Shown here piece after piece: positions 35,422 through 50,941 of a stretch of 64,000 nucleotides of DNA. Positions within the stretch are counted from its first letter, which is position 1. Every line of letters begins with the position of its first letter. The stretch comes from Clostridium sp. CAG:354_28_25. Lineage in GTDB: Bacteria > Bacillota > Clostridia > TANB77 > CAG-508. The translations under genes were made by a program, and so were the position numbers. The DNA lies in the NCBI GenBank assembly GCA_001915925.1, contig MNRL01000010.1, forward strand, positions 6,140-70,139, in the 5' to 3' direction. The notes below the pieces were generated by a model, which saw only the letters and a program-made list of their open reading frames with translations, was not told the DNA's origin and did no database searches.

Positions 35422-35455
35422 ATATGCTAGAAAAAATAGAAGGAATTGATGTTGT

Positions 35456-38400: not shown

Positions 38401-40231
38401 AAATGATACAGCATTAACAGGTAGAGAACCACAAGTAGATGTAACAAACTTAGCAGATGGAACATCTACAACAGCTACATATAATCATCCAAAAAATCCT
38501 ATAGATATGCAAAGAGGAGATATCGTAATATATACAATAAGAGTATATAATGAAGGTTCAATGGATGGATATGCAAATGAAATAACAGATTATTTACCAG
38601 AAGAATTAGAATTTTTACCAGACCATGAAATAAACCAAGAATATGAATGGCAAGTATCTAGTGATGGAAGACATGTTACAACAGATTATTTATCAAAAGC
38701 TAAAGAAACATCATCAAGACAAAACTTATTAAAAGCTTTTGATGGAACAACATTGGATTATAAAGATGTAAAGATAACATGTAAAATAAAAGATACTGCA
38801 GAAGTTGGTAAAAAGCTAACAAACTTAGCAGAAATAACAGAATCTAAAGATTCAGATGGAAATGATGTAGTAGACAGAGATTCTGAAACAGATAATGTAG
38901 AAGTACCAACAGACGAAGATTTACCAAATTATAAAGATGACGAAATAGATAAAGACTATGTACCTGGTCAAGAAGATGATGATGACTTCGAAAAGGTAAA
39001 AGTAGTATATTTCGATTTAGCATTAAGAAAATTTATAACAGCAGTAGATGATACAGAAATAACAAACAGAATACCACAACTAAGTATTGGTGAAGATGGA
39101 AATATAGATTATAATCATACAAAAGAGCCTGTAGAAGTAGAAAATGGTAATATAGTAACATATACATTAAGAATTTATAATGAAGGTATGATGGCAGGTT
39201 ATGCAAGCAGGGTAAAAGATGATGTGCCAGATGGATTGGAATTCTTGCCAGACAACGAGATAAACCAAGAATATAGATGGGTATTATCAGAAGATGGAAC
39301 AAGTATAGAGACCGATTATCTATCTAAAGAGCAAGAACAAACAGAAGGTGCAAACTTAATAAAAGCATTTGATCCAGAATTAGGAATAACGGATACAAAC
39401 CCAGACTATAGAGATTTAAAAATAGCATTTAGAGTAACAGAACCAAACACATCAGATAGAATATTAGTAAATACAGCAGAAATTTCAGATGACAGAGATG
39501 AAAACAATGATCCAGTAGACGATATAGATTCTACCCCAGATAACAATAACGAGTGGAACGAAGAAGATGATTTAGACAAAGAATTTGTAAAAGTTAAATA
39601 CTTTGATTTAGCATTAAAGAAATGGGTAAGTAGAGCAATTGTTACAAACCAAGATGGTTCACAAAACATAATAGAAACAGGACATACAGGAGATGAAGAT
39701 CCAGAGCCACCAGCAAAAGTAGATTTAGGAAGACAAGACATTAATAAAGTAACAGTAAAATTTGAATTCCAAATTAAAATAACAAATGAAGGTGAAATTG
39801 CTGGATATGCAACAGAAGTAACAGACTATATTCCAGAAGGCTTAAAGTTTATACAAGAAGACAACCCATTATGGTATCCAAGAGAACCATTAAACGGAAG
39901 AGAAAGAGTTGGAACACAACAATTAGCAGATACATTACTACAACCAGGAGAAAGCGCAACAATATCAATCCTATTAACATGGATAAATGATCCAAATAAT
40001 ATGGGATTAAAAACAAACATAGCAGAAATAAGCCAAGATGATAATGATAGTGATACACCAGATATAGACTCAACACCAGATAACTTTACAGATGGTGAAG
40101 ACGATATAGATGATGCACCAGTAATGTTAACAGTAGCACTAGGTGATACACAAATATATATAGGTTTAGGATTTGTAATAGTAGCAATGTTAACAGGTGG
40201 AATTTGGGCAATAAAAAGATATGTTTTATAG
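35456..40231 (+). CDS. Giant surface adhesin (1591 aa): signal peptide, N-terminal thioester-domain (TED)-like module, three tandem Cna B-type domains, four DUF11 repeats with acidic linkers, C-terminal TM anchor (KRYVL tail)
   Basis: Signal MKLLNKKLMLLMMGIIVMLLALLTGKVQA. Conserved Cys and Gln motifs TLYCLKAE and DVVQQLALWYFTN (see finding). Cna B repeats ...TITIEETQAPDGYEKVITAP.... DUF11 repeats YFDLALRKFIT...GD.V.YT..IYNEG...V.D.LP.GLEF. C-terminus LGFVIVAMLTGGIWAI-KRYVL. Confidence 0.75.
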   Translation: MKLLNKKLMLLMMGIIVMLLALLTGKVQAASQEFGLQEYRKPVGSTQYGYKVSDKYVWKIVTYSGSAINYDRTLYCLKAEQGFYTSEPGVFKETYNLSYDFMNKNSMNPLPVPSQYYNQIVWILNHSYIPSASTASTDKATLLQNAGISGNSELSDDDIDVVQQLALWYFTNYDDSTYHKDFENQASFQTVLQSTKTSGGTSAYQAIEDINQTRYDQMDKLFVYLVENAKKATASSNSTSSPIAMGNTTPTVEVSGSNYIVGPFKIDKNNDTPYTINFSITDQSGKSLAGKYTLLDSNKSQTSQTLAQLVGSNFYLRIPISTVNSENITSLRFSMNGNYTITTATYWTKSGDSTVQPIVELSRTPKAFSGNKEVTFPKEGSYNLKLIKVEQGNTTNKLQGATFRITSPNGTVTETTSSNGEINVGPITINTPGTDTITIEETQAPDGYEKVITAPINVQVTKTLSSNTYTMSNAVITNTQTGSSISVSGSTITVTVENKLIPKDSEYNLKLVKVEQGNTSKKLQGAEFRINSPTGEVTQTTNASGEINIGQIAVTATGTDTITIEETKAPDGYEKIITAPITVQVTKVFENNTYKMSTAQITNAQTGASLTLSGNTITVTVENKLIPKTSEYNLKLVKVEEGTSNKLEGAEFKINSPNGEVTKTTNASGEINIGPIAVTATGTDTITIEETKAPAGYEKIITAPITVQVTKVFENNTYKMSDAVITNAQNGADISLSGNTITVTVENKAKYFDLALRKYITQVNGENVANTRVPVIDTTSLTTGTTASYKHRKDPVAVTTGDKVIYNLTIYNEGQKPGRATKLQDQLPTGLVFNRVVSGNFELDSYSETDNLLKLRRTSNTDNLDAYNGTTLDSETIQIECTVTAVPTYKEQILTNVAWISEEYDAESNVTITNEENADRDSVPGTHPDVNKDNMEDYTGNNNQEDLTDDDYYFKGQEDDDDFEKLKVVYFDLALRKFITGKNDTALTGREPQVDVTNLADGTSTTATYNHPKNPIDMQRGDIVIYTIRVYNEGSMDGYANEITDYLPEELEFLPDHEINQEYEWQVSSDGRHVTTDYLSKAKETSSRQNLLKAFDGTTLDYKDVKITCKIKDTAEVGKKLTNLAEITESKDSDGNDVVDRDSETDNVEVPTDEDLPNYKDDEIDKDYVPGQEDDDDFEKVKVVYFDLALRKFITAVDDTEITNRIPQLSIGEDGNIDYNHTKEPVEVENGNIVTYTLRIYNEGMMAGYASRVKDDVPDGLEFLPDNEINQEYRWVLSEDGTSIETDYLSKEQEQTEGANLIKAFDPELGITDTNPDYRDLKIAFRVTEPNTSDRILVNTAEISDDRDENNDPVDDIDSTPDNNNEWNEEDDLDKEFVKVKYFDLALKKWVSRAIVTNQDGSQNIIETGHTGDEDPEPPAKVDLGRQDINKVTVKFEFQIKITNEGEIAGYATEVTDYIPEGLKFIQEDNPLWYPREPLNGRERVGTQQLADTLLQPGESATISILLTWINDPNNMGLKTNIAEISQDDNDSDTPDIDSTPDNFTDGEDDIDDAPVMLTVALGDTQIYIGLGFVIVAMLTGGIWAIKRYVL
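36596..37700 (+). repeat. Three in-frame tandem direct repeats of about 375 bp (125 aa Cna B-type domain) inside the adhesin gene
   Basis: Units start at about 36596, 36971 and 37346 (S/EYNLKL[IV]KVE[QE]G...TVENKLIPK). Units 2 and 3 are over 90% identical at the nucleotide level. Confidence 0.8.
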
Positions 40232-40281
40232 GGAATAAGGGACGTTCCTAAAATCCCGGGTAAACCGGGATTTTAGGAGTC
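40231..40281. repeat. Two adjacent palindromic repeat units (e1 40231-40257 GGGAATAAGGGACGTTCCTAAAATCCC; e2 40266-40281 GGGATTTTAGGAGTCC, truncated) forming a larger inverted structure around CCCGGGTAAACCGGG
   Basis: e1 starts on the last base of the adhesin stop codon. Confidence 0.65.
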
Positions 40282-40328
40282 CTTTTTGCGTTTAAAGAAA
40301 GCTACATATATTTGGCAGGTTCTATTGT

Positions 40329-40355
40329 GGGAAAAAAGGAACGTCCCCAAATCCC
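40329..40355. repeat. Palindromic repeat unit e3: GGGAAAAAAGGAACGTCCCCAAATCCC
   Basis: Nearly identical to unit f2 at 50673-50699 (GGGAAAAAAGGAATGTTCCCAAATCCC). Confidence 0.65.
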
Positions 40356-40514
40356 ACTAACCTCGAATTTTATAAAAAATTATTGTAAACTTAACAAAAA
40401 TGTAATATAATTGTAATGTGGACTAAAAAAATTGACGGAATATAGCAAAAACTGTATCCGTAAGCAGGTTCGAGCCACAAAAAAATAACCATAAAAAACT
40501 GCTATTTTTTGCTA

Positions 40515-40542
40515 TTGACTATTATTTAGAATATAGTAAAAT
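40515..40542 (+). promoter_or_regulatory. Putative promoter of the second adhesin gene (TTGACT-16 nt-TAAAAT)
   Basis: ttgact 40515-40520, taaaat 40537-40542. Confidence 0.4.
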
Positions 40543-40583
40543 ACACTTAGCAGTATTATGAGAAAAAGGATGGTAACGAAACT

Positions 40584-43500
40584 ATGAAACTTATTAAGAA
40601 AATAGCTGTAAGCATCATAGTTATGCTTTTAGCATTAGCTATGGGAACATCAGTATTTGCAGCTACAAATCCAGTTACATTTGGACTAAGTGAATATAGA
40701 AGAGAAACAAACGGAAAACAATATGGATATAGAATAAACAATGGAAATAAAAAAGTTTGGAAAGTTATTGTGTACGAAAATGACGGGACAACAATGAATT
40801 TTGACAATACAATATACTGTTTAAAAGCCGAAAAAGGTTTTTACACAGCAACACCAAATTCATTTAAACAAACATATGATAAAATGGTAGACTTTGCAGA
40901 TAAATCAAATTTAGTACCTGCAATTTTCGAAAACGATGACTATTATTATGCCGCTACATGGATTTTAGACCATGCATATATACCATATTATGCAAAATCA
41001 GGAGATTCAGTAGAAGTACAAGCTCAAAAAACTGAGCAAGCTGCACAAGATAGAGAAGATCTATTAAACGCATCTGGGATGAGCGATTCATTAAAACAAG
41101 AATTAACAGATGATGATATAGATGTAGTACAACAAATGGCATTATGGTATTTTACAAATACAAAAGCAAATGAGAATGCAGATATATATCATGTAGATTA
41201 TGCAGGAGAGCCATCATTCCAACCTGTAGCTATAGCTGAAAAAGGAGTAGGTTCTTATACAACAATAGAAGATGTTAACCAAACAAGAGCTGATGCAATG
41301 GAAAAACTATATCAATATATGGTAAAAACAGCTAAAAGTACAGAAAACATTGAATATTACAAAACACATAATGGAAAAGTAGAAGAACCAATAACATTAG
41401 CTACAGAAGTTAACCCAACAGTAGAATTAGATGGTGGAAATTATATAGTAGGACCATATAAAATAAATAAAAATAATGATTTACCATTCGAATTAAATGC
41501 AAAATTCACAGACCAAGATGGAACAGACTTAAATGGTAAATATACATTATTAAATTCAAGTAAACAAGCAGTATCACAAGGAACAACAATAAAAGATTTA
41601 GTAGGACAAAGTTTCTATATTTCAATCCCATCATCAAATATAGATGATATAACAAAAATAAAATTTAGTTATACAGGTTCATATAGAACTTCATCAAAAG
41701 GATTCTGGACAACAACACAAAATCCAGATACTGTACAACCATTAGTTGCAGTTGAAAAACAAGAAACTCCATTAAGTGGAGAAAAAGAAGTTGGAGTTGC
41801 AAAAAGAGAATTTGACTTATCATTAAGAAAATTTATTTCTGAAGTAAATGGAAAAGAAATAAATAGAGAGCCAACAGTAGATGTATCAAATTTAAATAAA
41901 AACATTGATGGAGCAAAAGTTACAACAGCTACTTATAACCATAACAAAAAACCAGTAGCAGTAAAACCAGGAGATATAGTTACATATACAATAAGAGTAT
42001 ATAATGAAGGTGAATTGGATGGTTATGTAGGAGAAATTACAGATTATTTACCAGCAGAATTAGAATTTATAAATGATGTAGAAAATTATCCAGAAGAAAC
42101 AGACTTTAATGCAGGTTATGGTTGGAAAATTGATGCAAGTAATAATAGAGTAATAAAAACAAATAAACTTGCTTACTCATCAGAAGCAGCAGACAGAGAT
42201 CAAAATGCAAGCAATTTAATAAAAGCATATAATGGAACAACATTAGATTACAAAGAAGTTAAAGTAAAATGTAAAGTAAAGAACTCTACAGAATCATTAA
42301 AGAAGATTACAAATTTAGCTCAAATTACACAAGAAACAGACAGTAAAGGTGGAGCAGTAACAGATAGGGACTCTGTACCAAATGGAAACTTTACATTACC
42401 ATCAGATACAGATTTACCAACATATAAAGATGACGAAATAAATTCTGGAAAACAATATATACCAGGACAAGAAGATGATGATGATTTTGAAAAAGTTATT
42501 ATTCAAGAATTTGATTTAGCATTAAGAAAATTTATATCAGGAAAAAATGGAACAACATTAATAGGTAGAGAGCCATCTGTAGATGTAACAAATTTAGCAA
42601 ATGGAACAGCTACAACAGCAACATATAATCATCCAAAGAAAGCTGTGGATATGGCAAGAGGAGATGTTGTAGAATACACAATAAGAGTATATAATGAAGG
42701 CTCAATAGATGGATATGCAAATAAAATAGTAGATAAATTACCAGCAGAATTAGAGTTCTTACCAGAAAACGAAACAAATATACAATATGGATGGCAAGTT
42801 TCAGAAGATGGAAGAACAGTAACAACAGATTATTTATCAGAAGCAAGAGGAGGCATTCCAGTTTCTACAGCAACAACTTCAAATCAAAATTTAATAAAAG
42901 CATTTGATGGAACAACATTATCATATAAAGATGTAAAAATAGTATGTAAAGTAAAAGATACTGCAGAATTTGGTAAGAAATTAACAAATTTAGCAGAGAT
43001 AACAGAAGCAAAAGATTCTGAAGGAAATGATGTAATAGATAGAGATTCTGAAACAAATAATATGCAAGTTCCAAGTGATGAAGACTTACCAGCATATAAA
43101 GATGACGAAATAAACAACGAATATGTACCAGGACAAGAAGACGATGATGACTTCGAAAAAGTTAGAGTAGTATATTTTGACTTAGCATTAAGAAAATTTA
43201 TTACTGCAGTTGATGACCAAGAAGTAACTACGAGAGTTCCACAATTAAGTATTGGAGAAGATGGAAATATTAAATATGACCATACAAAAGATCCTGTTGA
43301 AGTAGAAAACGGAGATGTAGTTACATATACAATAAGAATATATAATGAAGGATTAATAGATGGACATGCAACAGAAGTAAAAGATGATATTCCAGATGGA
43401 CTAAAATTCTTACCAGATAACCCTATAAATAGAGAGTATAGATGGCAAGAATCGGAAGATGGACAAAGTGTAACAACAGATTACTTAGCTAAGGCACAAG

Positions 43501-44396
43501 AAGAAAATGACGGAGATAATCTAATAAAAGCATATGACCCAGAAAAAGGACTAACAGAAAACAATCCTGATTACAGAGATGTAAAAATCGCATTCCAAGT
43601 AACAGAACCAAATACATCAGATAGAATATTAGTAAATACAGCAGAAATTGCTGATGATAGTGATAGTTCTGGGGATCCAATTGAGGATATAGATTCTACT
43701 CCAGATAACAACAATGAGTGGAACGAAGAAGACGACTTAGATAAAGAATTTGTAAAAGTTAAATACTTCGATTTAGCCCTAAAAAAATGGGTAAGTAAAG
43801 CAATCATAATAGATGCAGACGGAACACAGACTGTACAAGAAACAGGACATACAGGTGACGAAGATCCAGAACCACCAGCAAAAGTAGATTTAGGAAGAAG
43901 AGATATAAACAAAGTAACAGTAAAATTCGAATTCCAAATCAAAATAACAAACGAAGGTGAAATCGCTGGATATGCAAAAGAAATAACAGATTATATCCCA
44001 GAAGGTTTAAGATTTGTACAAGAAGATAACCCGGATTGGTATACAAGAGAGCCTTTAAATGGTAAAGAAAGAGTTGCAACAAAATTATTAGAAAATACAT
44101 TATTACAACCAGGAGAAAGTGCAACAGTATCAATCATCTTAACATGGATAAATGGACAAGATAATATGGGCTTAAAAACAAATATTGCAGAAATAAGCCA
44201 AGATTATAATGATAGTCATACACCAGACATAGACTCTGTGCCAGACAACTTTAAAGAAGATGAAGATGATATAGATGATGCTCCAGTAATGCTTACAGTA
44301 GCACTAGGTGATGCAAAATTATATATCGGAATAGCAACACTAGTAGTTATAGCACTAGGTGGAGGAGTATTCATAATTAAGAAATATGTAATTTAA
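40584..44396 (+). CDS. Paralogous giant surface adhesin (1270 aa): signal peptide, TED-like N-terminal module, four DUF11 repeats, C-terminal TM anchor (KKYVI tail). No Cna B tandem array.
   Basis: Signal MKLIKKIAVSIIVMLLALAMGTSVFA. Motifs TIYCLKAE and DVVQQMALWYFTN. The 3' ~1.9 kb is about 85-90% identical to the 3' end of the 35456..40231 gene. Confidence 0.75.
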   Translation: MKLIKKIAVSIIVMLLALAMGTSVFAATNPVTFGLSEYRRETNGKQYGYRINNGNKKVWKVIVYENDGTTMNFDNTIYCLKAEKGFYTATPNSFKQTYDKMVDFADKSNLVPAIFENDDYYYAATWILDHAYIPYYAKSGDSVEVQAQKTEQAAQDREDLLNASGMSDSLKQELTDDDIDVVQQMALWYFTNTKANENADIYHVDYAGEPSFQPVAIAEKGVGSYTTIEDVNQTRADAMEKLYQYMVKTAKSTENIEYYKTHNGKVEEPITLATEVNPTVELDGGNYIVGPYKINKNNDLPFELNAKFTDQDGTDLNGKYTLLNSSKQAVSQGTTIKDLVGQSFYISIPSSNIDDITKIKFSYTGSYRTSSKGFWTTTQNPDTVQPLVAVEKQETPLSGEKEVGVAKREFDLSLRKFISEVNGKEINREPTVDVSNLNKNIDGAKVTTATYNHNKKPVAVKPGDIVTYTIRVYNEGELDGYVGEITDYLPAELEFINDVENYPEETDFNAGYGWKIDASNNRVIKTNKLAYSSEAADRDQNASNLIKAYNGTTLDYKEVKVKCKVKNSTESLKKITNLAQITQETDSKGGAVTDRDSVPNGNFTLPSDTDLPTYKDDEINSGKQYIPGQEDDDDFEKVIIQEFDLALRKFISGKNGTTLIGREPSVDVTNLANGTATTATYNHPKKAVDMARGDVVEYTIRVYNEGSIDGYANKIVDKLPAELEFLPENETNIQYGWQVSEDGRTVTTDYLSEARGGIPVSTATTSNQNLIKAFDGTTLSYKDVKIVCKVKDTAEFGKKLTNLAEITEAKDSEGNDVIDRDSETNNMQVPSDEDLPAYKDDEINNEYVPGQEDDDDFEKVRVVYFDLALRKFITAVDDQEVTTRVPQLSIGEDGNIKYDHTKDPVEVENGDVVTYTIRIYNEGLIDGHATEVKDDIPDGLKFLPDNPINREYRWQESEDGQSVTTDYLAKAQEENDGDNLIKAYDPEKGLTENNPDYRDVKIAFQVTEPNTSDRILVNTAEIADDSDSSGDPIEDIDSTPDNNNEWNEEDDLDKEFVKVKYFDLALKKWVSKAIIIDADGTQTVQETGHTGDEDPEPPAKVDLGRRDINKVTVKFEFQIKITNEGEIAGYAKEITDYIPEGLRFVQEDNPDWYTREPLNGKERVATKLLENTLLQPGESATVSIILTWINGQDNMGLKTNIAEISQDYNDSHTPDIDSVPDNFKEDEDDIDDAPVMLTVALGDAKLYIGIATLVVIALGGGVFIIKKYVI

Positions 44397-44422
44397 AAAA
44401 TCTTTAAAACAAAAATGCAAAA

Positions 44423-44456
44423 AAAGAGGGTATTCGGATTAGATATCCTCTTTTTT
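44423..44456 (+). terminator. Terminator after the second adhesin gene
   Basis: AAGAGGGTAT-loop-ATATCCTCTT imperfect stem followed by TTTTTT. Confidence 0.5.
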
Positions 44457-44629
44457 ATATAAAGGTTATAAAATATTAGTAAAGAATTTATGAGTGCTAA
44501 AGATGATATAATAACTGGTATAAATTTATTAGACATATAGAACATTGATTTTTTGATATAGATTGAAAAAATAGAAATTTTATGATATCATAGTAGTTAC
44601 CATAAAACGAGAAGTAAAGGAGAAAAAGT

Positions 44630-44857
44630 ATGAGTGATATGAGTAAAAATACAAATCTAGAAATAGCTGTTGAAATTATGGCAGCTAAAATTGCAAAAAT
44701 GTCTAGAGAAGGATATACAGCTGAAGACGATAAAATGAAAAAACTGATAGATGAAAGAAATAAAATGTATATTGGAGAAGAGGATGTAATAGAGAAAATA
44801 ATAACAGAATACGGACCAGAAATAAAAAAAGATTATATTAATATAGAAGGAGAATAG
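44630..44857 (+). CDS. Small acidic helical protein. Candidate epsilon/PezA-like antitoxin, based on position immediately upstream of a zeta-toxin gene.
   Basis: 75 aa, charged. RBS AAAGGAG upstream of the ATG. Stop is 3 nt before the zeta-like gene start. Confidence 0.4.
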   Translation: MSDMSKNTNLEIAVEIMAAKIAKMSREGYTAEDDKMKKLIDERNKMYIGEEDVIEKIITEYGPEIKKDYINIEGE

Positions 44858-44860
44858 AAT

Positions 44861-45703
44861 ATGGAAGAAAATAAAACATTAGAAGAAGTATGTACTGAAT
44901 ATAAGCTTTCAGAAGACGAACGCAACGAAATAGGAAACAAAATAAATGCGATTATGTTAGCAGGAAAGAAAACAAGTGAGCAACCTATAGCAATAATAGA
45001 TATTGCACCTCCAGGTTCTGGAAAAACAGGTTTAAACGGATATGCCTGTGCACAGTTTAAGGATAATAATGCTGTTGTCATTAATAGTGATGAATTAAAA
45101 CCATTTCATCCTAGAATAGATGAATTAGCAAAAAAATATCCAGAATATTATACAAAAGTAACTAATCAAGAAAGTAATTTTTGGACAGACAATTTATTTG
45201 ATGTTGCAGTAGCTAGTAGGTATAATGTTATTTTTGAGGGAACAGGTAGAAACTTAAAACTATTAACAAAGATGATGAGCAAAATGCATGGGTACAAAAT
45301 AGTTGTAAGAGGAATGGCCGTTAATGAACTAAATTGCTTGATGTCAATAATTGAAAGATATGAAGGACAAGTAGAACAAAAAGGCTGGGGAAGGTTGGTA
45401 ATGGAAGATCATTTTTATAAAGCATATGATGAAATGCTAGAAAATATCCAAGCGATTGAAGAATCTGGAATGGCAGATATTGTTGAAGTTTATACAAGAA
45501 GTGACAATCCAAGTAGACCACTAAGAATATATAGTAGTAGAAATAGAGAATTTAAAGATGCAAGAACAGCTGTAATTGTTGGAAGAGAAAGAGACAGAAA
45601 AAGTGCAGAACAATATTATGAAGAAAAATTTAGTAAAAGAGGAACAAAACCAACAAAGTTTCCAGAAGAAAAAGAACTTCTAGAAAAAATAACAGAAATA
45701 TGA
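44861..45703 (+). CDS. Zeta-toxin family P-loop kinase (PezT/zeta-like; the family phosphorylates UDP-GlcNAc)
   Basis: Walker A IAPPGSGKTGL. Blocks VINSDELKPFHP (zeta VIDNDTFKQQHP), NVIFEGTGRN (NLVIEGTGRT), GYKIVVRGMAVNELNCLMSIIERYE ([25 protein letters not shown]). Confidence 0.75.
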   Translation: MEENKTLEEVCTEYKLSEDERNEIGNKINAIMLAGKKTSEQPIAIIDIAPPGSGKTGLNGYACAQFKDNNAVVINSDELKPFHPRIDELAKKYPEYYTKVTNQESNFWTDNLFDVAVASRYNVIFEGTGRNLKLLTKMMSKMHGYKIVVRGMAVNELNCLMSIIERYEGQVEQKGWGRLVMEDHFYKAYDEMLENIQAIEESGMADIVEVYTRSDNPSRPLRIYSSRNREFKDARTAVIVGRERDRKSAEQYYEEKFSKRGTKPTKFPEEKELLEKITEI

Positions 45704-45744
45704 GAACAAGGAATACAATTATAAATTTGAATAGAGGGATGATT

Positions 45745-46767
45745 ATGAACGAATCAAAAACAATAAAAGATGTTGTGGAAGAGGTAGAAAAATCTTCAAC
45801 AACCTTTGAAAAAACAAATACTGACTTAAAAAGAAAATTTTTAAAATGGAATATAGAAGCATTTAATATGATTGCTTCTTCAGTAAGTGTAAATAGAGGC
45901 TCATTTGGAACTGGCTATCCATTTTATGTATTGGATGAAAATTTAAATGGAGAAATTCCAATTATTTCGGAACAAATTAGATATAACAGGCAATTAGTAA
46001 GAGATGGGGAGCCTGTACAAAAATCCATATGGCAGTGTAAATCTTGTCTAGAAAGAAATTATGATATAATGCCAGATTTAAAAATAGTATGTAAACCATG
46101 CCAAAATATGATAGATTCATTAAAGCCAAGAAAAATTATAAACAGATTACCTGACTTAGACATGTGGTTAGTTTGTGAGGACGGAAGTATTGAACAAGCA
46201 CAAGCTGAATTAAGCAAATTACTAGAGAAATATAATATGCGTACATCAGATGTTTCTCCATTACAATCTTTAAGTGATGTTGTGAAAATTTCAACAAATT
46301 TAAAAGACGGAGAATTTCCAAAAGTATTTTTGCCAATAGATGCACATATTATGGAAAAATCAAAATTGATGGAACTAGTAGAACAAGTACCAGATGAATT
46401 ACAATTAGCAAAACTAGAAGAAAGAAAACCATATTTACCAATTAGACCAAAATCACTTAGAAAAGAATGGCAATATGATGACGAGGCATATAACTTTATT
46501 TATGATTATCTTTCAGCTTTTACAGCATTTAACTTTACAGAAGGAATGGAAGAAACACTACAAAAGAGCAGAACTAGAGTAATAAGAGAAAATACGCCAG
46601 AAGAATTGTTCGATTTTCTTACGCAAGCAGCAACTCCAGCAAACTTTAGAAGATTTCAGGAACATGAATTAGAAGAAATTTTTTATAGAAGAATAACAGG
46701 ATGGGGCGAGCAACTAACAAAGGAAAGAGGAGAATTAGAAGAAGACGAGGGACCTGAACTTGAATAA
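45745..46767 (+). CDS. Hypothetical protein with CxxC...CxxC zinc-ribbon (CKSC...CKPC) and an acidic C-terminus. Translationally coupled to the zeta-like gene.
   Basis: The ORF-track start at 45700 overlaps the zeta stop (ATGA). The internal ATG at 45745 has RBS GAGGG 6 nt upstream, so the true start is uncertain. No confident domain match. Confidence 0.5.
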   Translation: MNESKTIKDVVEEVEKSSTTFEKTNTDLKRKFLKWNIEAFNMIASSVSVNRGSFGTGYPFYVLDENLNGEIPIISEQIRYNRQLVRDGEPVQKSIWQCKSCLERNYDIMPDLKIVCKPCQNMIDSLKPRKIINRLPDLDMWLVCEDGSIEQAQAELSKLLEKYNMRTSDVSPLQSLSDVVKISTNLKDGEFPKVFLPIDAHIMEKSKLMELVEQVPDELQLAKLEERKPYLPIRPKSLRKEWQYDDEAYNFIYDYLSAFTAFNFTEGMEETLQKSRTRVIRENTPEELFDFLTQAATPANFRRFQEHELEEIFYRRITGWGEQLTKERGELEEDEGPELE

Positions 46768-46783
46768 TAAGGAGGAAGATAGA

Positions 46784-47677
46784 ATGGGAAAAAGAATAGA
46801 TTTACATATTCATACAACAGTTTCAGATGGAGCATTAACACCTAAAGAAGTAATAGATGAAGCATGTAAAAATGGAGTATCTGTAATTGCAATAGCAGAC
46901 CATGATACAGTAGATGCATATAATGATGAATTATTTGAATATGCAAAAAGTAAAAATATAAAGATAATAAATGCAGTCGAGATTTCTACTAAAGCGAAAA
47001 AAGCAGGAGTACATGTATTAGGATATAATCTAGATTTAAATGATGAAGAGTTTAAAGAAAGATTAAGTAAAATTAGAAATGCGAGACATAATTATTTACA
47101 TGATGTAGCTAAAAAGTTAGAAGAACTAGGATATTATATAAATGTAGAAGAATTAGATAAGATAGATGCTGTAACAAAAGCACATATAGCTTTAGATGCA
47201 ACAAACAATCCAAAAAACAAAGAAAAATTATTAGCAGAATTTGGGCATATTCCAAGTAAAGGAGAATTTATAGAAACAATAATGAACGAAAATTGTCCTG
47301 CATATGTAAAAAAGGAAAGTGCAACTCCAAAAGAAGCTGCAGAAATTATAAGAGCTGCAAATGGAAAAGTGGTTTTAGCACATCCAGTAGCATATGTGCA
47401 TGAAGATAATTTGAACGATGAAGATATTTTGGAAATTGTTAATGATATGAAACCTGATGGATTAGAAGCTAACTATTTGTATGTAGATAGATATGATAAG
47501 AAATTTGATGAAACAGAAAAATGGAATGAATTTGCTAAGAAACACAACTTATTTGTAACGGTTGGTTCTGATTTCCATAATAAAGATGGACTTAGACCAG
47601 AAATAGGTTTTATAAATACAGACTTTGTTTTAGCAGAAGAAGTTATTGAGGAGATTCTTAGAAATTTAGAAAAATAA
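46784..47677 (+). CDS. PHP-domain metal-dependent phosphoesterase (TrpH/YciV-type)
   Basis: N-terminal RIDLHIHTTVSDGALTPKEVI, IAIADHDTVDAY, later LAHP and GSDFHN motifs. RBS AAGGAGGAAG. I chose the ATG at 46784. Confidence 0.8.
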   Translation: MGKRIDLHIHTTVSDGALTPKEVIDEACKNGVSVIAIADHDTVDAYNDELFEYAKSKNIKIINAVEISTKAKKAGVHVLGYNLDLNDEEFKERLSKIRNARHNYLHDVAKKLEELGYYINVEELDKIDAVTKAHIALDATNNPKNKEKLLAEFGHIPSKGEFIETIMNENCPAYVKKESATPKEAAEIIRAANGKVVLAHPVAYVHEDNLNDEDILEIVNDMKPDGLEANYLYVDRYDKKFDETEKWNEFAKKHNLFVTVGSDFHNKDGLRPEIGFINTDFVLAEEVIEEILRNLEK

Positions 47678-47771
47678 AGTAAAGATAAGGATAGAGTTAG
47701 TAAAATTGAATATTATACAATATGTAATTAAAAAATAATATAAAATGTCTAAAAATAGTATCCGTAAAGTG

Positions 47772-47815
47772 ATAGAGCATTGCACCAAGAATTGGAAGCA
47801 ATGCTCTATTTACTT
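47772..47815 (+). terminator. Terminator-like hairpin after the PHP gene
   Basis: ATAGAGCATTGC-14 nt-GCAATGCTCTAT perfect 12-bp stem followed by TTACTTATATT. Confidence 0.45.
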
Positions 47816-47853
47816 ATATTAATATAATAAGTTATTATAGGAGAAATAGGTGT

Positions 47854-48462
47854 ATGCAAATGAAAGGAAAAAAAGTAGAATCGGTAAAAAACAATAATAA
47901 GAAAAGAGTAATAAATAAGAAAGCAATAATAGGATTAATAGTGATACTGGGAATTTTACTACTAACTTTTACTTTTACCAAACAATTTGTAGAATCAAGT
48001 GGCTCAACAGCAAAACAAAATGAAGAAACAAATGCAGAAACTAGAGCTACATCATAATCGGTAACAGGAAATGCAACAATAGAAGAAAACATTCCAGAAG
48101 GAATGAGCCTAGCAAACAATGACGGAACATGGGAAGAACAAGCTGGAGTATTAAGAAAGATAATAGCAGAAATAAATCCAGGGGAAACAAAAGAATATAC
48201 AGTAGTACTAGACTGGAATACAGCAGAAACCAACATGGGAGAAAAAGACAATATAGTAAGTATAGTAGATACACAAAATATACCAGGATTTGTAGATAAC
48301 AATGATAAAGATAATACATCAAATGCAAATGTCATAATCTCTGTAGAAACAGGAGAATTACCAATAGGATTAATACTTGCATTAGTAGCATTAGTAGGAT
48401 TAGAAACAGTAACATTAAGATATGCAGTAGTACTTACTAAAAGACAAAAGAAAAATAAATAA
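47854..48462 (+). pseudogene. Small surface-protein gene interrupted by an in-frame TAA at 48055-48057: signal/TM N-terminus, DUF11-like fragment, C-terminal TM anchor + KRQKKNK
   Basis: ORFs 47854..48057 and 48103..48462 are in the same frame, separated only by the TAA. Downstream sequence (...IPEGMSLANNDGTWEE...VVLDWNTAET...) resembles the C-terminal DUF11 module of the adhesins. Ends GELPIGLILALVALVGLETVTLRYAVVLTKRQKKNK. Confidence 0.5.
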
Positions 48463-48483
48463 AGACAAGTAATAATAAAATAT

Positions 48484-48545
48484 AAAGCATCAATTGAAAT
48501 GCAAACTTTTAGTTAAAGAAGGCATTCAATGGATGCTTTTATAAT
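48484..48545 (+). terminator. Terminator-like long hairpin
   Basis: AAAGCATCAATTGAAATGC ... GCATTCAATGGATGCTTT imperfect 18-bp stem followed by TT. Confidence 0.4.
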
Positions 48546-48552
48546 ATTGAAA

Positions 48553-48655
48553 TTATTTTGATACAGCAAAAAATGTTAAAGGAAGAAAATTATTTCGATA
48601 CAACGAAAAAAATGTCAAAAAAAGAAAGTTATTTCGATACATCGAAATAACTTGA
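48553..48655. repeat. Three tandem ~35-bp direct repeats (TTATTT[CT]GATACANCGAAAAAAATGTNAAA...). The last contains a perfect 10-bp-arm palindrome TTATTTCGAT-ac-ATCGAAATAA just upstream of the AAA ATPase gene.
   Basis: Read directly. Units start at about 48553, 48590 and 48630. Confidence 0.6.
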
Positions 48656-48698
48656 AAAAATAAAATAATCTGTTATAATTAAATTAGAGGTGAAAACT

Positions 48699-49895
48699 AT
48701 GTTAAAAAGAGAATATTATTTAAAAAGAATAAGACCATTTTATCAAGAAAATAGTTTAATTAAAATAATATATGGTTTAAGAAGAGCTGGTAAATCAGTA
48801 ATATTAAATCAAATTAAGGATGAATTACTAAAAGATAAAACTGATGAAAGCCATATTATATATATAAATTTTGAATCGTTAGATTACAGTTTTATAAAAA
48901 ATGCAATAGATTTAAATAATTATATAAAACAACAAATTAAAGATAATAAAACATACTATATATTTTTAGACGAAATACAAAAAGTAAAAGATTTTGAAAA
49001 AGGAATAAATTCACTTCGTATAACGAATCAATGTAGTATTTTTATAACTGGTTCAAACAGCAAGATGACATTTAAAGAACTTTCAACTGACTTAACAGGT
49101 AGATATGTTAGTTTTAAAGTAAATCCACTGAACTTTTCTGAAGCACTAGAAATAACAAATACAAATGATTATAAAAAATTATTGTTTGATATTTTTGAAT
49201 GGGGAAGCTTACCACAAAGGTTTTCATTTAAAGAGGATATTACTAAATTAAATTATATATCAGATGTATATGATTCTATTGTTTTAAAGGACGTTGTAGA
49301 GAGATTGGGAGTAAAAGATATTACTTTATTTAATAAAGTATGGCAATATATTTTAGAAACTGAAGGAAGAGAATTTTCTGCAACTAATGTCTTGAAATAT
49401 TTAAAAAATGAATATAGAGAAGTATCTGCAGAAACTTTATATAACTATATAGAAGCATTATGTTCGACTTTTATTATTAACAAAGTATACAGATATGATA
49501 TACATGGTAAAAGTATTTTAAAAACATTAAATAAATATTATGTATCAGATCTTGGAGTGAAAAAGATAAAAAATACAAATAAAGAAACTAATTATTCAAT
49601 TTGTTTAGAGAATTTGGTATATAATGAATTAATTTTTAAAGGATATGATGTTTATATAGGAAAATTAAAAGATGCAGAAGTCGATTTTGTAGCTATAAAA
49701 GATAAAAAGATTAAGTATATTCAAGTAAGCTTATATTTAAATTCCGAAGAAACAATAAATAGGGAATTTGGAGCATATAAGAGTATACAAGACAATTATC
49801 CCAAATATGTAATATCTTTAGATGATGTGGATATGTCAACTAATGGAATAAAGCATTTGAATGTTTTTGACTTTTTGTTAAATGAAGATTTTTAA
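48699..49895 (+). CDS. AAA+ ATPase of the COG1373 / AAA_14-DUF4143 family
   Basis: N-terminal P-loop IIYGLRRAGKSVILNQI, Walker B YIFLDEIQ, then the DUF4143-type C-terminal half. RBS GAGG 9 nt upstream of the ATG at 48699. The ORF track starts at the GTG at 48690. Confidence 0.8.
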   Translation: MLKREYYLKRIRPFYQENSLIKIIYGLRRAGKSVILNQIKDELLKDKTDESHIIYINFESLDYSFIKNAIDLNNYIKQQIKDNKTYYIFLDEIQKVKDFEKGINSLRITNQCSIFITGSNSKMTFKELSTDLTGRYVSFKVNPLNFSEALEITNTNDYKKLLFDIFEWGSLPQRFSFKEDITKLNYISDVYDSIVLKDVVERLGVKDITLFNKVWQYILETEGREFSATNVLKYLKNEYREVSAETLYNYIEALCSTFIINKVYRYDIHGKSILKTLNKYYVSDLGVKKIKNTNKETNYSICLENLVYNELIFKGYDVYIGKLKDAEVDFVAIKDKKIKYIQVSLYLNSEETINREFGAYKSIQDNYPKYVISLDDVDMSTNGIKHLNVFDFLLNEDF

Positions 49896-49948
49896 AGTCA
49901 AAAATTGCACAACAAAGTAGTCAAAAAATGCACAATGCTATTGGATGA

Positions 49949-50218
49949 ATGAAAATGTATACAATGTCTTTATATGAATCTGGAGATTCATCAGGAGAGG
50001 CTTCTTTAAAAGATTTATTTGAAAATAAAGTGAAAAAAAAGCTCGTAAAAAAGGTAGAGTTAAAAAGATTAGCGGAACTGATTGTAAAAGGTGGTTGGCC
50101 TGAAGCAGTAAATATTAGTGTTAATGGAGCTATGAAAATTACTAGAAGTTATATTGAGGCTGTACTAGATAAAGATATTATAGAGATTGATGGAGTAAAT
50201 AGAGATAAGCAAAAGTAG
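49949..50218 (+). pseudogene. Internal fragment of a second COG1373-type ATPase paralog (lacks P-loop and C-terminus)
   Basis: 89-aa ORF. ...LVKKVELKRLAELIVKGGWPEAVNI...SYIEAVLDKDIIEIDGVNRDKQK aligns to the middle of the 48699 protein (WGSLPQRF...VYDSIVLKDVVERLGVKDITLFNK). Confidence 0.4.
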
Positions 50219-50544
50219 GAGATGAATATGACATAAAAGCAAAAGAGTTCTTAAGTTATAAACTAGTAGAAGCAGATGAAGAAGAAAACAGCATGTTACC
50301 AACAAATGCAGCAGGAACGATGACAGAAGAGAAAATAGTAGTAAACTACTACTATAAGCAACCAGCAAAAGTAATAGTACACTATGTAGAAAAAGCAACA
50401 GGAAAAGAAATAGAGGAAATAAATCCAGAAACAGGAGAATTACCAATAGGATTAATACTTGTATTAGTTGCATTAGTAGGATTAGAGACAGTAACATTAA
50501 GATATGCAGTAGTATTTACTAAAAGGCAAAAAAATAAGAAATAA
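50209..50544 (+). pseudogene. 3' fragment of a surface-protein gene (end of a Cna B-like domain plus C-terminal anchor); no 5' part
   Basis: Open frame begins right after a stop at 50206 (...EYDIKAKEFLSYKLVEADEEENSMLPTNAAGTMTEEKIVVNYYYKQPAKVIVHYVEK...). Ends ETGELPIGLILVLVALVGLETVTLRYAVVFTKRQKNKK, about 93% identical at the nucleotide level to 48346..48462. Confidence 0.45.
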
Positions 50545-50550
50545 CTAAAA

Positions 50551-50596
50551 AACAGCATCTTAAGATTGTAAAAATTAAAAGGTGCTGTTTTTTTAT
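50551..50596 (+). terminator. Rho-independent terminator
   Basis: AACAGCATC-21 nt loop-GGTGCTGTT followed by TTTTTT. Confidence 0.5.
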
Positions 50597-50628
50597 GTAA
50601 AAACTAATTATACCAAAAATAGAAAATC

Positions 50629-50699
50629 GGGATTTTAGGAACGTCCCCAAACCCCTCCCCAAATCCCTCTTCGGGAAAAAAGGAATGTTCCCAAATCCC
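50629..50699. repeat. Two palindromic repeat units (f1 50629-50667 GGGATTTTAGGAACGTCCCCAAA[CCCCTCCCCAAA]TCCC with internal duplication; f2 50673-50699 GGGAAAAAAGGAATGTTCCCAAATCCC) upstream of the giant Fn3 protein gene
   Basis: Same family as 4856, 8095, 11307, 25838 and 40231. Confidence 0.65.
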
Positions 50700-50941
50700 T
50701 AAGGGTTTTACAAGATACAATGAAAGAACAATGGCAATAAAAAAATATTTTTTAAAATGTCATAATAATTTAATATTCTAAAAAATATAGAAGCAAAAAA
50801 CTTCAAAATAAGCTTCCGTAAATAGATAGAAGTAAAAAAAATGAAATTAAAAAAAATGGAAAATTCTATATATTGAAATGAAAAAATTTCTATGGTAACA
50901 TTTTTTTGATATAAACAAAACAAATAGGAGAGGGAAAGGCT

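What the first reader, a model, noticed from the sequence alone, without database searches (positions are those of the whole stretch)
44630..47677. Four-gene module: epsilon-like small protein, zeta-toxin kinase, coupled zinc-ribbon protein, PHP phosphoesterase
The zeta-family kinase is well supported. Its stop overlaps an ATG (ATGA) of a 355-aa uncharacterised CxxC-CxxC protein, which is followed 17 nt later by a PHP-domain phosphoesterase. Classical epsilon/zeta systems are two- or three-gene. An extended kinase, unknown and phosphoesterase arrangement in an accessory region next to an AAA/DUF4143 ATPase looks like a toxin-antitoxin-derived or phage-defence-type system.
Basis: partly seen in the sequence, partly recalled or inferred. 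Interest (0 to 1): 0.55.

Follow-up and report, generated by a model that had tools for sequence, protein, structure and literature searches.

The report
Zeta toxin cassette inside nucleotidyltransferase–PHP operon
A gut Clostridia bacterium has a zeta-type toxin–antitoxin pair sitting between the promoter and the first gene of a conserved, uncharacterised two-gene operon (a zinc-ribbon nucleotidyltransferase-like protein plus a PHP phosphoesterase), and this four-gene layout recurs in many related species, so the toxin kinase and the phosphoesterase may work together.

Summary
The four co-directional genes are real. They form one operon with a promoter at 44563-44591 and a terminator-like hairpin at 47773-47810. 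The organism is Clostridium sp. CAG:354 / Candidatus Merdicola, and the operon lies about 9 kb downstream of rpoBC.

The module has two layers.
1. X-PHP is an apparently obligate, translationally coupled pair. X is a 340-aa protein with no family assignment, an invariant D..D..D triad and a RanBP2-like zinc ribbon. PHP resembles TrpH/YciV (RNase AM). PHP follows X in 80 of 80 species loci and in all four distant X relatives examined (20-28% identity). Other distant relatives are annotated as Patescibacteria.
2. The small protein plus zeta kinase is an optional, faster-diverging cassette. It sits between the X-PHP promoter and the X ribosome-binding site. It is complete in 14 of 80 species, all within one Clostridia clade. 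Closely related syntenic genomes lack it.

Zeta keeps the Walker A motif, the catalytic Asp and the EGTGR motif. The small partner is a new family, predicted as three helices, with no sequence similarity to epsilon or PezA.

A zeta-centred search finds PHP in the same gene cluster almost every time, even where X is deleted or the gene order is changed. A functional kinase–phosphoesterase link is therefore plausible but unproven.

Nothing supports a phage-defence role. The neighbouring AAA_14/DUF4143 gene is an unrelated strain-variable insertion.

The parts
44563..44591 (+). Sigma-70-type promoter: TTGAAA, 17-nt spacer, TATCAT, with an upstream TG (extended -10).
   Evidence: It is the best promoter match in the region, 10 of 12 positions. 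It is homologous to the promoter that lies directly upstream of X in the zeta-less relatives L012, L015 and L028.
44592..44629 (+). 5' leader containing the conserved AGTAGTTACCATAAA motif and the AAAGGAG ribosome-binding site of the small gene.
   Evidence: The leader motif is conserved between zeta-bearing loci (window, L010, L011, L117) and zeta-less loci (L012, L015, L028). This marks the upstream edge of the cassette insertion.
44630..44857 (+). Small 75-aa protein, the presumed antitoxin (epsilon-like by position only). It belongs to a new family with the signature NTKLEIAVEI..A.KIA...ER.EMY.GN...I.KII..YG.
   Evidence: It is found immediately upstream of zeta in 14 genome loci and most metagenome loci. 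It has no Pfam, NCBIfam, PDB or PHROG match. It is predicted as three helices (residues 2-26, 34-47, 51-71) in the model of the natural read-through fusion P0311.
44861..45703 (+). Zeta-family P-loop kinase, the presumed toxin.
   Evidence: Pfam Zeta_toxin 2.8e-32. The family profile matches zeta 1gvn_B at 1.1e-24. The model matches zeta and PezT structures at about 1e-10, against 1e-3 for the polynucleotide kinase Pnkp1. GSGKT, D77 (zeta D67), EGTG(R130 nearly invariant), R166 (zeta R158) and D110 are invariant across 24 homologues.
45745..46767 (+). Protein X, 340 aa. Uncharacterised family, probably a Pol-beta-type nucleotidyltransferase fold with an inserted zinc ribbon and a C-terminal helical domain.
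   Evidence: The start is set by 35 homologues and by GenBank. No member of the family has a Pfam domain. D137, D139, D199, C116 and C119 are invariant down to about 20% identity. The AF2 model has pLDDT 81.7. The top Foldseek hits are ANT(9), AadA, CdnD, Tam41, NF90 and MNT, but with E>=0.03.
46030..46101 (+). Zinc-ribbon insert of X: W96-x-C98-xx-C101...N...C116-xx-C119, RanBP2-like.
   Evidence: The cysteines and W96 are conserved family-wide. There is a weak profile match to RanBP2/Nup153 zinc fingers, E 0.2-2.
46784..47677 (+). PHP-family phosphoesterase, 297 aa, of the TrpH/YciV (RNase AM) / 3',5'-bisphosphate-nucleotidase type.
   Evidence: Pfam PHP. NCBIfam gives the nucleoside bisphosphate phosphatase at 3e-42 and RNase RNM at 1e-37, both far below their cut-offs. 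PDB matches are 9etk, 7ug9, 2yb1 and 3e0f. The HxH, DHD, E, H, AHP and GSDFH motifs align to those structures. It lies immediately downstream of X in 80 of 80 loci.
47773..47810 (+). Terminator-like hairpin: a perfect 12-bp stem (ATAGAGCATTGC / GCAATGCTCTAT) followed by a T-rich stretch. It marks the end of the operon.
   Evidence: Read directly from the sequence. The consensus scanner missed it because the loop is 14 nt. The only Rfam match here is a sub-threshold sRNA hit on the same hairpin.

Best explanation
This is a composite operon.

The host part is an ancient two-gene unit, X-PHP. X is a zinc-ribbon protein that probably has a Pol-beta-type nucleotidyltransferase fold. PHP is a trinuclear-metal phosphoesterase of the TrpH/YciV (RNase AM) / pAp-phosphatase type. 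By inference, the two act together on nucleotide or short nucleic-acid ends: PHP as a 5'-3' oligonucleotidase or 3'-phosphatase, X as a nucleotide-adding or nucleotide-binding partner. This would be a housekeeping-like role in small-genome bacteria.

In one Clostridia clade, a two-gene epsilon/zeta-type toxin-antitoxin cassette sits between the X-PHP promoter and the X ribosome-binding site. All four genes are therefore transcribed from the host promoter.

By inference, the zeta-type kinase uses ATP to phosphorylate a UDP-sugar or nucleotide hydroxyl, most probably on UDP-GlcNAc as zeta and PezT do, and this arrests cell-wall synthesis. The 75-aa three-helix protein encoded just upstream would bind and block it.

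The small partner is too small to carry PezA's extra HTH domain, and no omega-like regulator gene lies in the operon, so the cassette depends on the host operon for expression. That dependence, together with the apparent indispensability of PHP, would explain why it stays there.

Shown: gene structure, the shared promoter, conservation statistics, conserved catalytic motifs, and the different evolutionary behaviour of the two layers. Inferred: toxicity, neutralisation, substrates, and the role of X-PHP.
For: Architecture:
- Gaps are 3, 41 and 16 nt, with one strong promoter and one terminal hairpin.

X-PHP autonomy:
- PHP is directly downstream of X in 80 of 80 species loci, and 64 of those lack zeta.
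- The pair lies in varied contexts, several of them housekeeping.
- The pair is kept, with overlapping or near-abutting stop and start codons, in relatives at 20-28% identity. Family members occur in Patescibacteria and Saccharibacteria.
- X and PHP divergence is tightly correlated, Spearman 0.91.

Cassette nature of small+zeta:
- In syntenic relatives (adhesin gene, X, PHP, 1817-aa gene) the cassette is cleanly absent.
- In those relatives the homologous promoter and leader abut the X ribosome-binding site.
- L016 keeps only the 3' half of zeta.
- Zeta and small identities are discordant with X and PHP. Window vs L009 gives X 89, PHP 95, zeta 66, small 67. Window vs L117 gives small 89, zeta 65. 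Spearman values are 0.2-0.5.
- Small+zeta also exists as a stand-alone two-gene unit (L116, L152-155).

Zeta identity.

L073 is the one locus without the small gene, and it is also the one whose zeta has lost the EGTGR arginine.

Neither X nor this zeta clade was found on mobile elements: X is absent from the plasmid and phage records, and both are absent from viral contigs.
Against: - The zeta clade is almost never found away from PHP. Only one lineage among roughly 20 lacks it nearby.
- Two rearranged layouts still keep zeta in the PHP transcription unit: L139 (PHP-small-zeta) and L073 (X-zeta-PHP). So do several loci where X is deleted: L121, L124, L127 and L092. Pure hitch-hiking explains the X deletions but not easily the rearrangements.
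- No toxicity, neutralisation or substrate has been tested.
- The small protein has no detectable similarity to any known antitoxin.
- The NTase fold of X rests on non-significant Foldseek hits (E>=0.03) and on motifs. An hhalign comparison to AadA was insignificant.
Confidence: 0.48

Rival explanations
1. An integrated kinase/phosphoesterase circuit. The zeta kinase makes a toxic phosphorylated nucleotide-sugar or nucleotide, such as UNAG-3P or a 3'-phosphorylated nucleotide like 3'-NADP. The co-transcribed PHP enzyme hydrolyses that phosphate and acts as an enzymatic reset or second antidote, analogous to DarG reversing DarT. The small protein is the fast stoichiometric inhibitor. X is an accessory factor of PHP.
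For: - Zeta-centred loci carry PHP in the same gene cluster in nearly all cases, including layouts without X (L121, L124, L127), a reordered PHP-small-zeta (L139) and X-zeta-PHP (L073).
- A strain of the same species has an internal 395-nt deletion in X but intact small, zeta and PHP.
- The closest characterised relatives of PHP remove the 3'-phosphate of pAp and cleave 5'-phosphorylated oligonucleotides (PMC11528712).
- Zeta-family kinases phosphorylate hydroxyls of nucleotide-sugars or of NAD (PMC5923241, PMC5491322).
- The literature states that a UNAG-3P block can only be relieved by breakdown of UNAG-3P, and names no enzyme for this (PMC5923241).
Against: - PHP (with X) is equally conserved in the 64 of 80 species that lack zeta.
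- No PHP or X residue tracks zeta presence. The best Fisher p is 0.0017 over about 300 columns, uncorrected for multiple tests and confounded by phylogeny.
- Small-zeta can stand alone.
- Adjacency after loss of X is expected anyway if PHP is indispensable.
- The known PHP relatives act on ribose 3'-phosphates and phosphodiesters, not on GlcNAc-3-phosphate.
Confidence: 0.28
2. A non-toxic end-healing or salvage pathway. The P-loop kinase, the nucleotidyltransferase and the phosphoesterase act in sequence on RNA or DNA ends, or on a nucleotide metabolite. This would be 5'-kinase plus 3'-phosphatase/5'-3' exonuclease plus nucleotide addition, as in Pnkp/Hen1 RNA repair, PolX, or CCA-adding enzymes with HD domains. 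The small protein would be a regulatory subunit.
For: - The three enzyme classes match the logic of end-healing systems.
- RNase AM-type PHP enzymes need 5'-phosphorylated substrates (PMC11528712, and my own knowledge of the Cv1693/TrpH work).
- The X zinc ribbon resembles RNA-binding RanBP2 fingers.
- A distant X-PHP locus has an AAA_33/KTI12-type kinase divergently upstream and a NUDIX gene downstream.
- Pnkp1 appears among the structural hits of the kinase.
Against: - The kinase matches zeta and PezT about seven orders of magnitude better than Pnkp1.
- It keeps the zeta-specific D67 equivalent and the EGTGR motif.
- It always comes with a tightly coupled small partner, as TA toxins do.
- It is optional and patchy, and evolves discordantly from X-PHP. 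That is not what a pathway enzyme would show.
Confidence: 0.1
3. A dedicated four-gene anti-phage defence system. The zeta kinase is an abortive-infection effector, released when phage infection perturbs the small inhibitor, X or PHP.
For: - TA modules, including zeta types, are often proposed to act in phage defence (review PMC10532202).
- The cassette shows presence/absence polymorphism and allele turnover.
- A NERD+HRDC gene lies directly upstream in one lineage.
- A PADLOC candidate gene (PDC-S01) lies 1 kb downstream in this strain.
Against: - None of the four proteins matches any PADLOC model.
- X-PHP is core-like and vertically inherited.
- The locus sits next to rpoBC and adhesin genes, not in a recognisable defence island.
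- The PDC-S01 gene is an independent insertion, absent in a strain of the same species.
- No relatives were found on phage, plasmid or viral contigs.
Confidence: 0.07

Closest known systems
Epsilon/zeta (pSM19035, with omega) and PezA/PezT toxin-antitoxin systems
   Same: - The kinase is a clear homologue: Pfam Zeta_toxin, and PDB 1gvn, 3q8x and 2p5t by both sequence and fold.
- It keeps the Walker A motif, the catalytic Asp and the EGTGR motif.
- A small helical protein is encoded immediately upstream, 3 nt before the kinase start.
- The pair can also occur alone as a two-gene unit.
   Different: - The small partner has no detectable similarity to epsilon or to the PezA C-terminal domain.
- There is no omega-like or HTH regulator.
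- The cassette has no promoter of its own here and lies within the 5' leader of a host operon.
- It is chromosomal, in uncultured gut Clostridia.
- It scores far below the PezT equivalog cut-off, 53 against 470 bits.
RNase AM / YciV / TrpH and Cv1693 3',5'-nucleoside-bisphosphate phosphatase (PHP family)
   Same: - Same domain and length, about 30% identity across the whole protein.
- All metal-ligand motifs are conserved.
   Different: - It scores well below both NCBIfam equivalog cut-offs, so it is a separate subfamily.
- It is invariably preceded by the X gene in this lineage. The characterised proteobacterial enzymes are not described with such a partner in the papers read here.
Fusions of a Pol-beta-type nucleotidyltransferase with a phosphoesterase: bacterial PolX (Pol-beta core + PHP) and class II CCA-adding enzymes (NTase + HD)
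   Same: The gene order X then PHP mirrors the domain order NTase then PHP in PolX. The logic of 3'-end cleaning followed by nucleotide addition would fit.
   Different: - This is a resemblance recalled from knowledge, not a detected homology.
- No PolX or CCA enzyme appears among the top structural hits of X.
- The PHP is of the TrpH type, not the PolX type.
- X carries a zinc-ribbon insert of about 80 residues between the GS and DxD motifs.
AvrRxo1-Arc1 (zeta-like NAD 3'-kinase with antitoxin)
   Same: It is a zeta-fold kinase that is toxic to bacteria and neutralised by a small partner. Its product carries a ribose 3'-phosphate, the type of bond that PHP relatives hydrolyse.
   Different: No specific similarity beyond the zeta fold was tested. 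The window protein is closer to classical zeta, with an identical EGTGR motif.
DarT/DarG (toxin whose modification is enzymatically reversed by the antitoxin)
   Same: Conceptual analogue only. It applies if PHP reverses the kinase product.
   Different: The enzymes and chemistry are unrelated. Here a separate small inhibitor also exists, and PHP is present in most genomes without the toxin.

Membership tests
Zeta toxin kinase family (Pfam PF06414; zeta/PezT) | Significant match to the family model, above the curated cut-off | tested here: met
   112.2 bits against a cut-off of 22.3, E=2.8e-32. The family profile against 1gvn_B gives 1.1e-24. Foldseek gives about 1e-10 to zeta and PezT.
Zeta toxin kinase family (Pfam PF06414; zeta/PezT) | Walker A lysine, catalytic Asp (zeta D67), the GTxR/EGTGR substrate motif and an Arg equivalent to R158 | tested here: met
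   GSGKT, D77, EGTG (R130 in all but L073) and R166 are invariant in 24 homologues and align to the zeta residues. The one exception is L073, which has EGTGN.
Zeta toxin kinase family (Pfam PF06414; zeta/PezT) | Phosphorylates UDP-GlcNAc (or another UDP-sugar) and is toxic when free | not testable with these tools
   Needs kinase assays and expression tests.
PezT equivalog (NCBIfam NF041574) | Score above the equivalog cut-off | tested here: not met
   53.4 bits against a cut-off of 470. It is a zeta-family member but not a PezT orthologue.
Epsilon / PezA antitoxins | Sequence or profile similarity to epsilon (Pfam Epsilon_antitox) or to the PezA C-terminal domain | tested here: not met
   No Pfam, NCBIfam or PHROG hit. 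A family profile against the PDB, which holds epsilon 1gvn and PezA 2p5t, found nothing at E<=10 apart from ribosomal noise.
Epsilon / PezA antitoxins | Small helical-bundle protein encoded directly upstream of zeta and co-inherited with it | tested here: met
   The stop-to-start gap is 3 nt. The small gene is present with zeta in 14 of 16 zeta-bearing genome loci and in most metagenome loci. Three predicted helices.
Epsilon / PezA antitoxins | Binds zeta and blocks its ATP site | not testable with these tools
   The model of the natural fusion P0311 returns no contact or PAE data. It needs a multimer prediction or pull-down.
PHP domain phosphoesterases (PF02811), TrpH/YciV/RNase AM subgroup | PHP domain above cut-off, with the metal-binding His/Asp/Glu motifs | tested here: met
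   43.5 bits against 26.4. HxH...D, DHD, E, H, AHP and GSDFH align to 9etk, 7ug9 and 2yb1.
PHP domain phosphoesterases (PF02811), TrpH/YciV/RNase AM subgroup | Equivalog-level membership: RNase RNM NF047791, or 3',5'-nucleoside bisphosphate phosphatase NF041577 | tested here: not met
   130 bits against 375, and 144.6 against 400.
Pol-beta-type nucleotidyltransferase superfamily (for X) | G[GS] motif, a [DE]x[DE] strand and a third carboxylate on a later strand | tested here: met
   The motifs are G52-S53, D137-x-D139 and D199. The three Asp are invariant in 67 representatives down to about 20% identity. The predicted strands at 50-56, 138-144 and 198-204 carry these motifs.
Pol-beta-type nucleotidyltransferase superfamily (for X) | Statistically supported fold or profile match to a known NTase | tested here: inconclusive
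Known or candidate anti-phage defence systems (PADLOC-DB v2) | Any of the four proteins matches a defence-system model | tested here: not met
   There were only two chance-level hits, at E about 0.01. The neighbouring AAA_14/DUF4143 gene does match PDC-S01 (1.6e-134), but it is an unlinked insertion.

The most novel reading that the evidence does not exclude
The zeta-type kinase and the PHP phosphoesterase form a previously undescribed toxin/enzymatic-antidote circuit. PHP, helped by the zinc-ribbon nucleotidyltransferase-like protein X, would break down the phosphorylated nucleotide-sugar or nucleotide made by the toxin. This would supply the missing 'reset' step that lets cells recover from zeta-induced arrest. 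Separately, X-PHP would be a new, widely conserved nucleotide- or RNA-end processing pair of small-genome bacteria, including Patescibacteria.
Probability: 0.25. Interest if true: 0.75.

Novelty: new variant of a known kind. Interest (0 to 1): 0.5.

Why it matters
- How cells clear the dead-end products of zeta toxins, such as UNAG-3P, is an open point in the field. A recurrent operon link between a zeta kinase and a phosphoesterase gives a concrete candidate to test.
- The finding defines a new antitoxin-like family for zeta kinases.
- It gives a clear example of a TA cassette that has no promoter or regulator of its own and lives inside the leader of a conserved host operon.
- The X-PHP pair is a conserved, unannotated two-gene unit. 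All GenBank records seen for X call it 'hypothetical protein'. It occurs in abundant human-gut Clostridia and Bacilli and in Patescibacteria.
- X-PHP is a worthwhile target for assigning function in reduced genomes. If it turns out to have no link to zeta, the locus is an ordinary TA insertion next to an uncharacterised housekeeping pair.

Tried and rejected
1. ATGA translational coupling of zeta and X is rejected. The true X start is 45745.
2. The AAA_14/DUF4143 ATPase as part of the module is rejected. It is strain-variable and flanked by 118-nt direct repeats.
3. A defence-system match was sought in PADLOC and none was found.
4. A mobile-element origin was tested. X has no relatives in plasmid or phage records, and neither X nor this zeta clade has relatives in IMG/VR contigs.
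5. Loci L142, L144 and L145 at first seemed to show four-gene conservation at 33-44% zeta identity. This is rejected as evidence of depth. They are frameshift-ridden long-read assemblies of the L055-like lineage.
7. I searched for PHP or X residues that track zeta presence. Nothing survives multiple testing.
8. I searched for zeta or small-gene remnants upstream of X in the 64 zeta-less loci and found none. L016 is the only remnant.
9. An Rfam scan of 44000-51000 gave only a sub-threshold hit on the terminator hairpin.
The natural read-through fusion P0311 was modelled instead, but the output gives no interface information.
12. Literature searches for a zeta toxin linked to a PHP domain or a phosphatase found no description of such a link.

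Full report
**What is in the window.**
Region 44563-47810 holds four genes on the + strand.
- A 75-aa ORF at 44630-44857.
- A 280-aa zeta-family kinase at 44861-45703.
- Protein X.
- A PHP-domain protein.

Reading the DNA shows:
- A terminator-like hairpin ends the upstream adhesin gene at about 44424-44457.
- The best promoter match of the region is TTGAAA-17-TATCAT with a TG extension, at 44563-44591.
- Ribosome-binding sites precede each gene.
- A perfect 12-bp hairpin lies at 47773-47810.

- X starts at ATG 45745, not at the ATGA at 45700. All aligned homologues begin at that Met. The GenBank protein OKZ60655.1 is 340 aa. AGAGGGA sits 6 nt upstream.
- PHP starts at ATG 46784 and is 297 aa, as in OKZ60656.1.
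- Most strains have a zeta that is 9 aa longer (P0272). The window appears to carry a 6-nt deletion that creates the TGA stop. The apparent stop/start overlap is therefore strain-specific.

The organism is Clostridium sp. CAG:354, also named Candidatus Merdicola sp., an uncultured and abundant human-gut member of the Clostridia. The locus lies about 9 kb downstream of rpoB-rpoC, after two giant TED/DUF11 adhesin-like genes.

**The four proteins.**

*The kinase* is a secure zeta-family member.
- Pfam Zeta_toxin gives 2.8e-32.
- The family profile matches zeta 1gvn_B at 1.1e-24 and PezT at 2.7e-18.
- A model matches zeta and PezT structures at about 1e-10. The next fold class, the polynucleotide kinase Pnkp1 and adenylate kinases, appears only at 1e-3.
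- GSGKT, D77 (zeta D67), EGTGR (identical to zeta 116-120) and R166 (zeta R158) are invariant or nearly so in 24 homologues.
- It is not a PezT orthologue by the NCBIfam cut-off.

*The small protein* defines a new family of 56-75 aa, with the motif NTKLEIAVEI...ER.EMY.GN...I.KII..YG.
- It has no similarity to epsilon, PezA or anything else in Pfam, NCBIfam, PHROGs or the PDB.
- In a model of a natural read-through fusion (P0311) it forms three helices.
- That is compatible with an epsilon-like bundle but does not prove one.

*X* has no family assignment in any library.
- None of 67 diverse members hits Pfam.
- D137, D139, D199, C116 and C119 are invariant down to about 20% identity. C98, C101, W96 and H201 are nearly invariant.
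- The AF2 model (pLDDT 81.7, pTM 0.82) places GS, DxD and D199 on successive strands. An insert of about 80 residues carries a RanBP2-like WxCxxC...N...CxxC zinc ribbon.
- Most top Foldseek hits are Pol-beta-type nucleotidyltransferases (ANT(9), AadA, CdnD, Tam41, NF90, MNT), but none is significant; the best E is 0.034.
- I therefore treat the NTase fold as probable, not shown.

*PHP* belongs to the TrpH/YciV (RNase AM) / Cv1693 group.
- It is about 30% identical to 9etk, 7ug9 and 2yb1, and all metal-ligand motifs are present.
- It scores below the equivalog cut-offs.
- Characterised members are 5'-3' oligonucleotidases with high activity on pAp (PMC11528712).

**Conservation: two layers.**

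*X-centred scan.* A scan of species-representative genomes found 117 species with X, and 80 loci were kept. All are uncultured gut MAGs labelled Clostridia, Bacilli or Tenericutes.
- PHP lies immediately downstream of X in 80 of 80 loci. In the more distant clades the stop and start often overlap by 4 nt.
- Four distant X relatives at 20-28% identity also have an overlapping or near-abutting PHP gene. Family members occur in Patescibacteria and Saccharibacteria.
- The surrounding genes vary and are often housekeeping: clpP/clpX/eno, metK, groES.
- Small+zeta lies immediately upstream of X in 14 of the 80 loci.
- L016 keeps only the 3' half of zeta.
- L073 has zeta between X and PHP, with no small gene.
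- The other 64 loci have no zeta and no remnant of it.
- On an X+PHP tree, the zeta-bearing loci are confined to one large Clostridia clade and are scattered within it.

*Zeta-centred scan.* The converse scan of metagenome contigs gave 58 loci.
- Nearly every locus with enough flanking DNA shows small-zeta-X-PHP.
- L121, L123/L124 and L127 have small-zeta-PHP without X.
- L139 has PHP-small-zeta.
- One lineage (L116, also seen as L152-155) has small-zeta alone.
- In L092, from the window's own species, X carries a 395-nt internal deletion while the other three genes are intact.

**The cassette sits inside the host operon's leader.**
- Close relatives share the order adhesin gene, X, PHP, 1817-aa gene. 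L012 and L015 (X 74% identical) lack small+zeta at exactly this site.
- The promoter and leader upstream of the small gene in the window (TTGAAA...TGATATCAT AGTAGTTACCATAAA) are homologous to the sequence directly upstream of the X ribosome-binding site in L012, L015 and L028.
- The 1.1-kb small-zeta unit is therefore an insertion or deletion between the X-PHP promoter and X. All four genes must share that promoter.

The two layers evolve differently.
- X and PHP divergences correlate at Spearman 0.91.
- Zeta against X gives 0.52, and small against zeta gives 0.23.
- There are clear discordances. Window vs L009 gives X 89%, PHP 95%, zeta 66%, small 67%. Window vs L117 gives small 89% and zeta 65%.
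- This pattern suggests allele replacement or recombination within the cassette, as is common for conflict genes.

**Interpretation.**
The best-supported reading is a composite operon: an autonomous epsilon/zeta-type TA cassette with a new antitoxin-like family, resident in the leader of an ancient X-PHP operon.

The kinase most probably phosphorylates a UDP-sugar as zeta and PezT do, and the small protein most probably neutralises it. Both steps are inferred. One supporting detail is that L073, the only locus lacking the small gene, also has a zeta that has lost the EGTGR arginine.

By inference, X-PHP acts on nucleotide or short nucleic-acid ends.

The main rival is a true functional link, in which PHP removes the phosphate added by the kinase.
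- For the link: zeta stays within the PHP transcription unit through X deletions and through two rearrangements (L139, L073). The literature says a UNAG-3P block can only be relieved by breakdown of UNAG-3P (PMC5923241).
- Against the link: PHP and X are equally conserved in the four-fifths of species without zeta. No residue tracks zeta presence. The cassette can stand alone.

A non-toxic end-healing pathway and a dedicated defence system are less likely. The kinase is zeta-like rather than PNK-like. It is optional and discordant with X-PHP. There is no PADLOC match for the four proteins and no mobile-element signal.

**The neighbouring ATPase.**
The AAA_14/DUF4143 gene at 48690-49895 matches the PADLOC candidate PDC-S01 at 1.6e-134. 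It lies beyond the operon's hairpin, inside a segment flanked by 118-nt direct repeats (48345-48462 and 50427-50544). That segment is absent from another contig of the same species, L097, where PHP is followed directly by the 1817-aa gene. It is not part of the module.

**Novelty and verdict.**
The zeta kinase and the PHP domain are known kinds. Three things are new.
- The antitoxin-like family.
- The nesting of the cassette in a host operon leader.
- The recurrent zeta-PHP association, together with the unannotated X-PHP pair.

A review of PezAT/zeta diversity does not mention any phosphatase or phosphoesterase, and full-text searches found no description of the link. I rate this a new variant of a known kind. 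Interest is moderate at 0.5, and would be higher if the kinase-phosphoesterase link is real.

Noticed in passing
window 48345-50544: The AAA_14/DUF4143 ATPase gene (48690-49895, PADLOC PDC-S01 1.6e-134), an 89-aa ORF and surface-protein C-terminal fragments lie between two 118-nt direct repeats (48345-48462 and 50427-50544, 93% identical). The whole segment is absent in another contig of the same species (L097). It looks like a strain-variable insertion into a degraded adhesin gene.
   Followed up: partly
window 48568-48653: A 39-nt tandem repeat, which also forms a 30-nt inverted repeat (TTATTTCGATACA.CGAAA), lies just upstream of the AAA_14/DUF4143 gene. It may be an operator or a recombination site.
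   Followed up: no
window 27911-44396: rpoB (27911-31642) and rpoC (31732-35265) are followed directly by two paralogous giant surface proteins of 1591 and 1270 aa. The 1270-aa protein has a thioester (TED) domain and a DUF11 domain; the 1591-aa one was not scanned. A further 1817-aa protein with no Pfam domain lies at 50942-56395. These adhesin-like genes are much more variable between relatives (58-99% identity) than X-PHP.
   Followed up: partly
window 45698-45724: The window's zeta gene appears to carry a 6-nt deletion relative to most strains. This creates a TGA stop and removes the last 9 residues (EIYDREQGMQL in P0272). Both variants are common in public assemblies.
   Followed up: partly
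L092 2977-2978 (corresponds to window 46030-46424): A metagenome contig of the same species has a 395-nt internal deletion in X. The deletion removes the zinc ribbon and the DxD motif, while small, zeta and PHP are intact. X seems dispensable, unless this is an assembly artefact.
   Followed up: partly
P0311 (protein from public assemblies): A natural variant in which the stop codon of the small gene is replaced by Tyr. The small protein is then fused in frame to zeta through a two-residue linker. The sequence is cut off by the end of its contig.
   Followed up: partly
L055 3894-4913 and L127 3784-4803: In an oral or gut Clostridiales lineage, a NERD + HRDC domain protein (339 aa) is encoded directly upstream of the small gene, 14 nt away. 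The operon there may therefore have five genes.
   Followed up: partly
L148 3717-7731 and L149 750-4764: Next to a very distant X-PHP pair (X 20% identical), an AAA_33/KTI12-type P-loop kinase and a YgjP-like gene lie divergently upstream, and a NUDIX hydrolase lies downstream. This may be an independent kinase association with X-PHP.
   Followed up: no
L025 and L061 (same MAG, CAZPKK01): One genome carries two copies of the four-gene set. In the second copy X appears truncated: its ORF ends after 717 nt, and a 349-nt gap precedes PHP.
   Followed up: no
P0185 and P0265 cluster: Distant members of the X family are annotated as coming from Patescibacteria and Candidatus Saccharibacteria. The X-PHP pair therefore spans several small-genome lineages.
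   Followed up: partly
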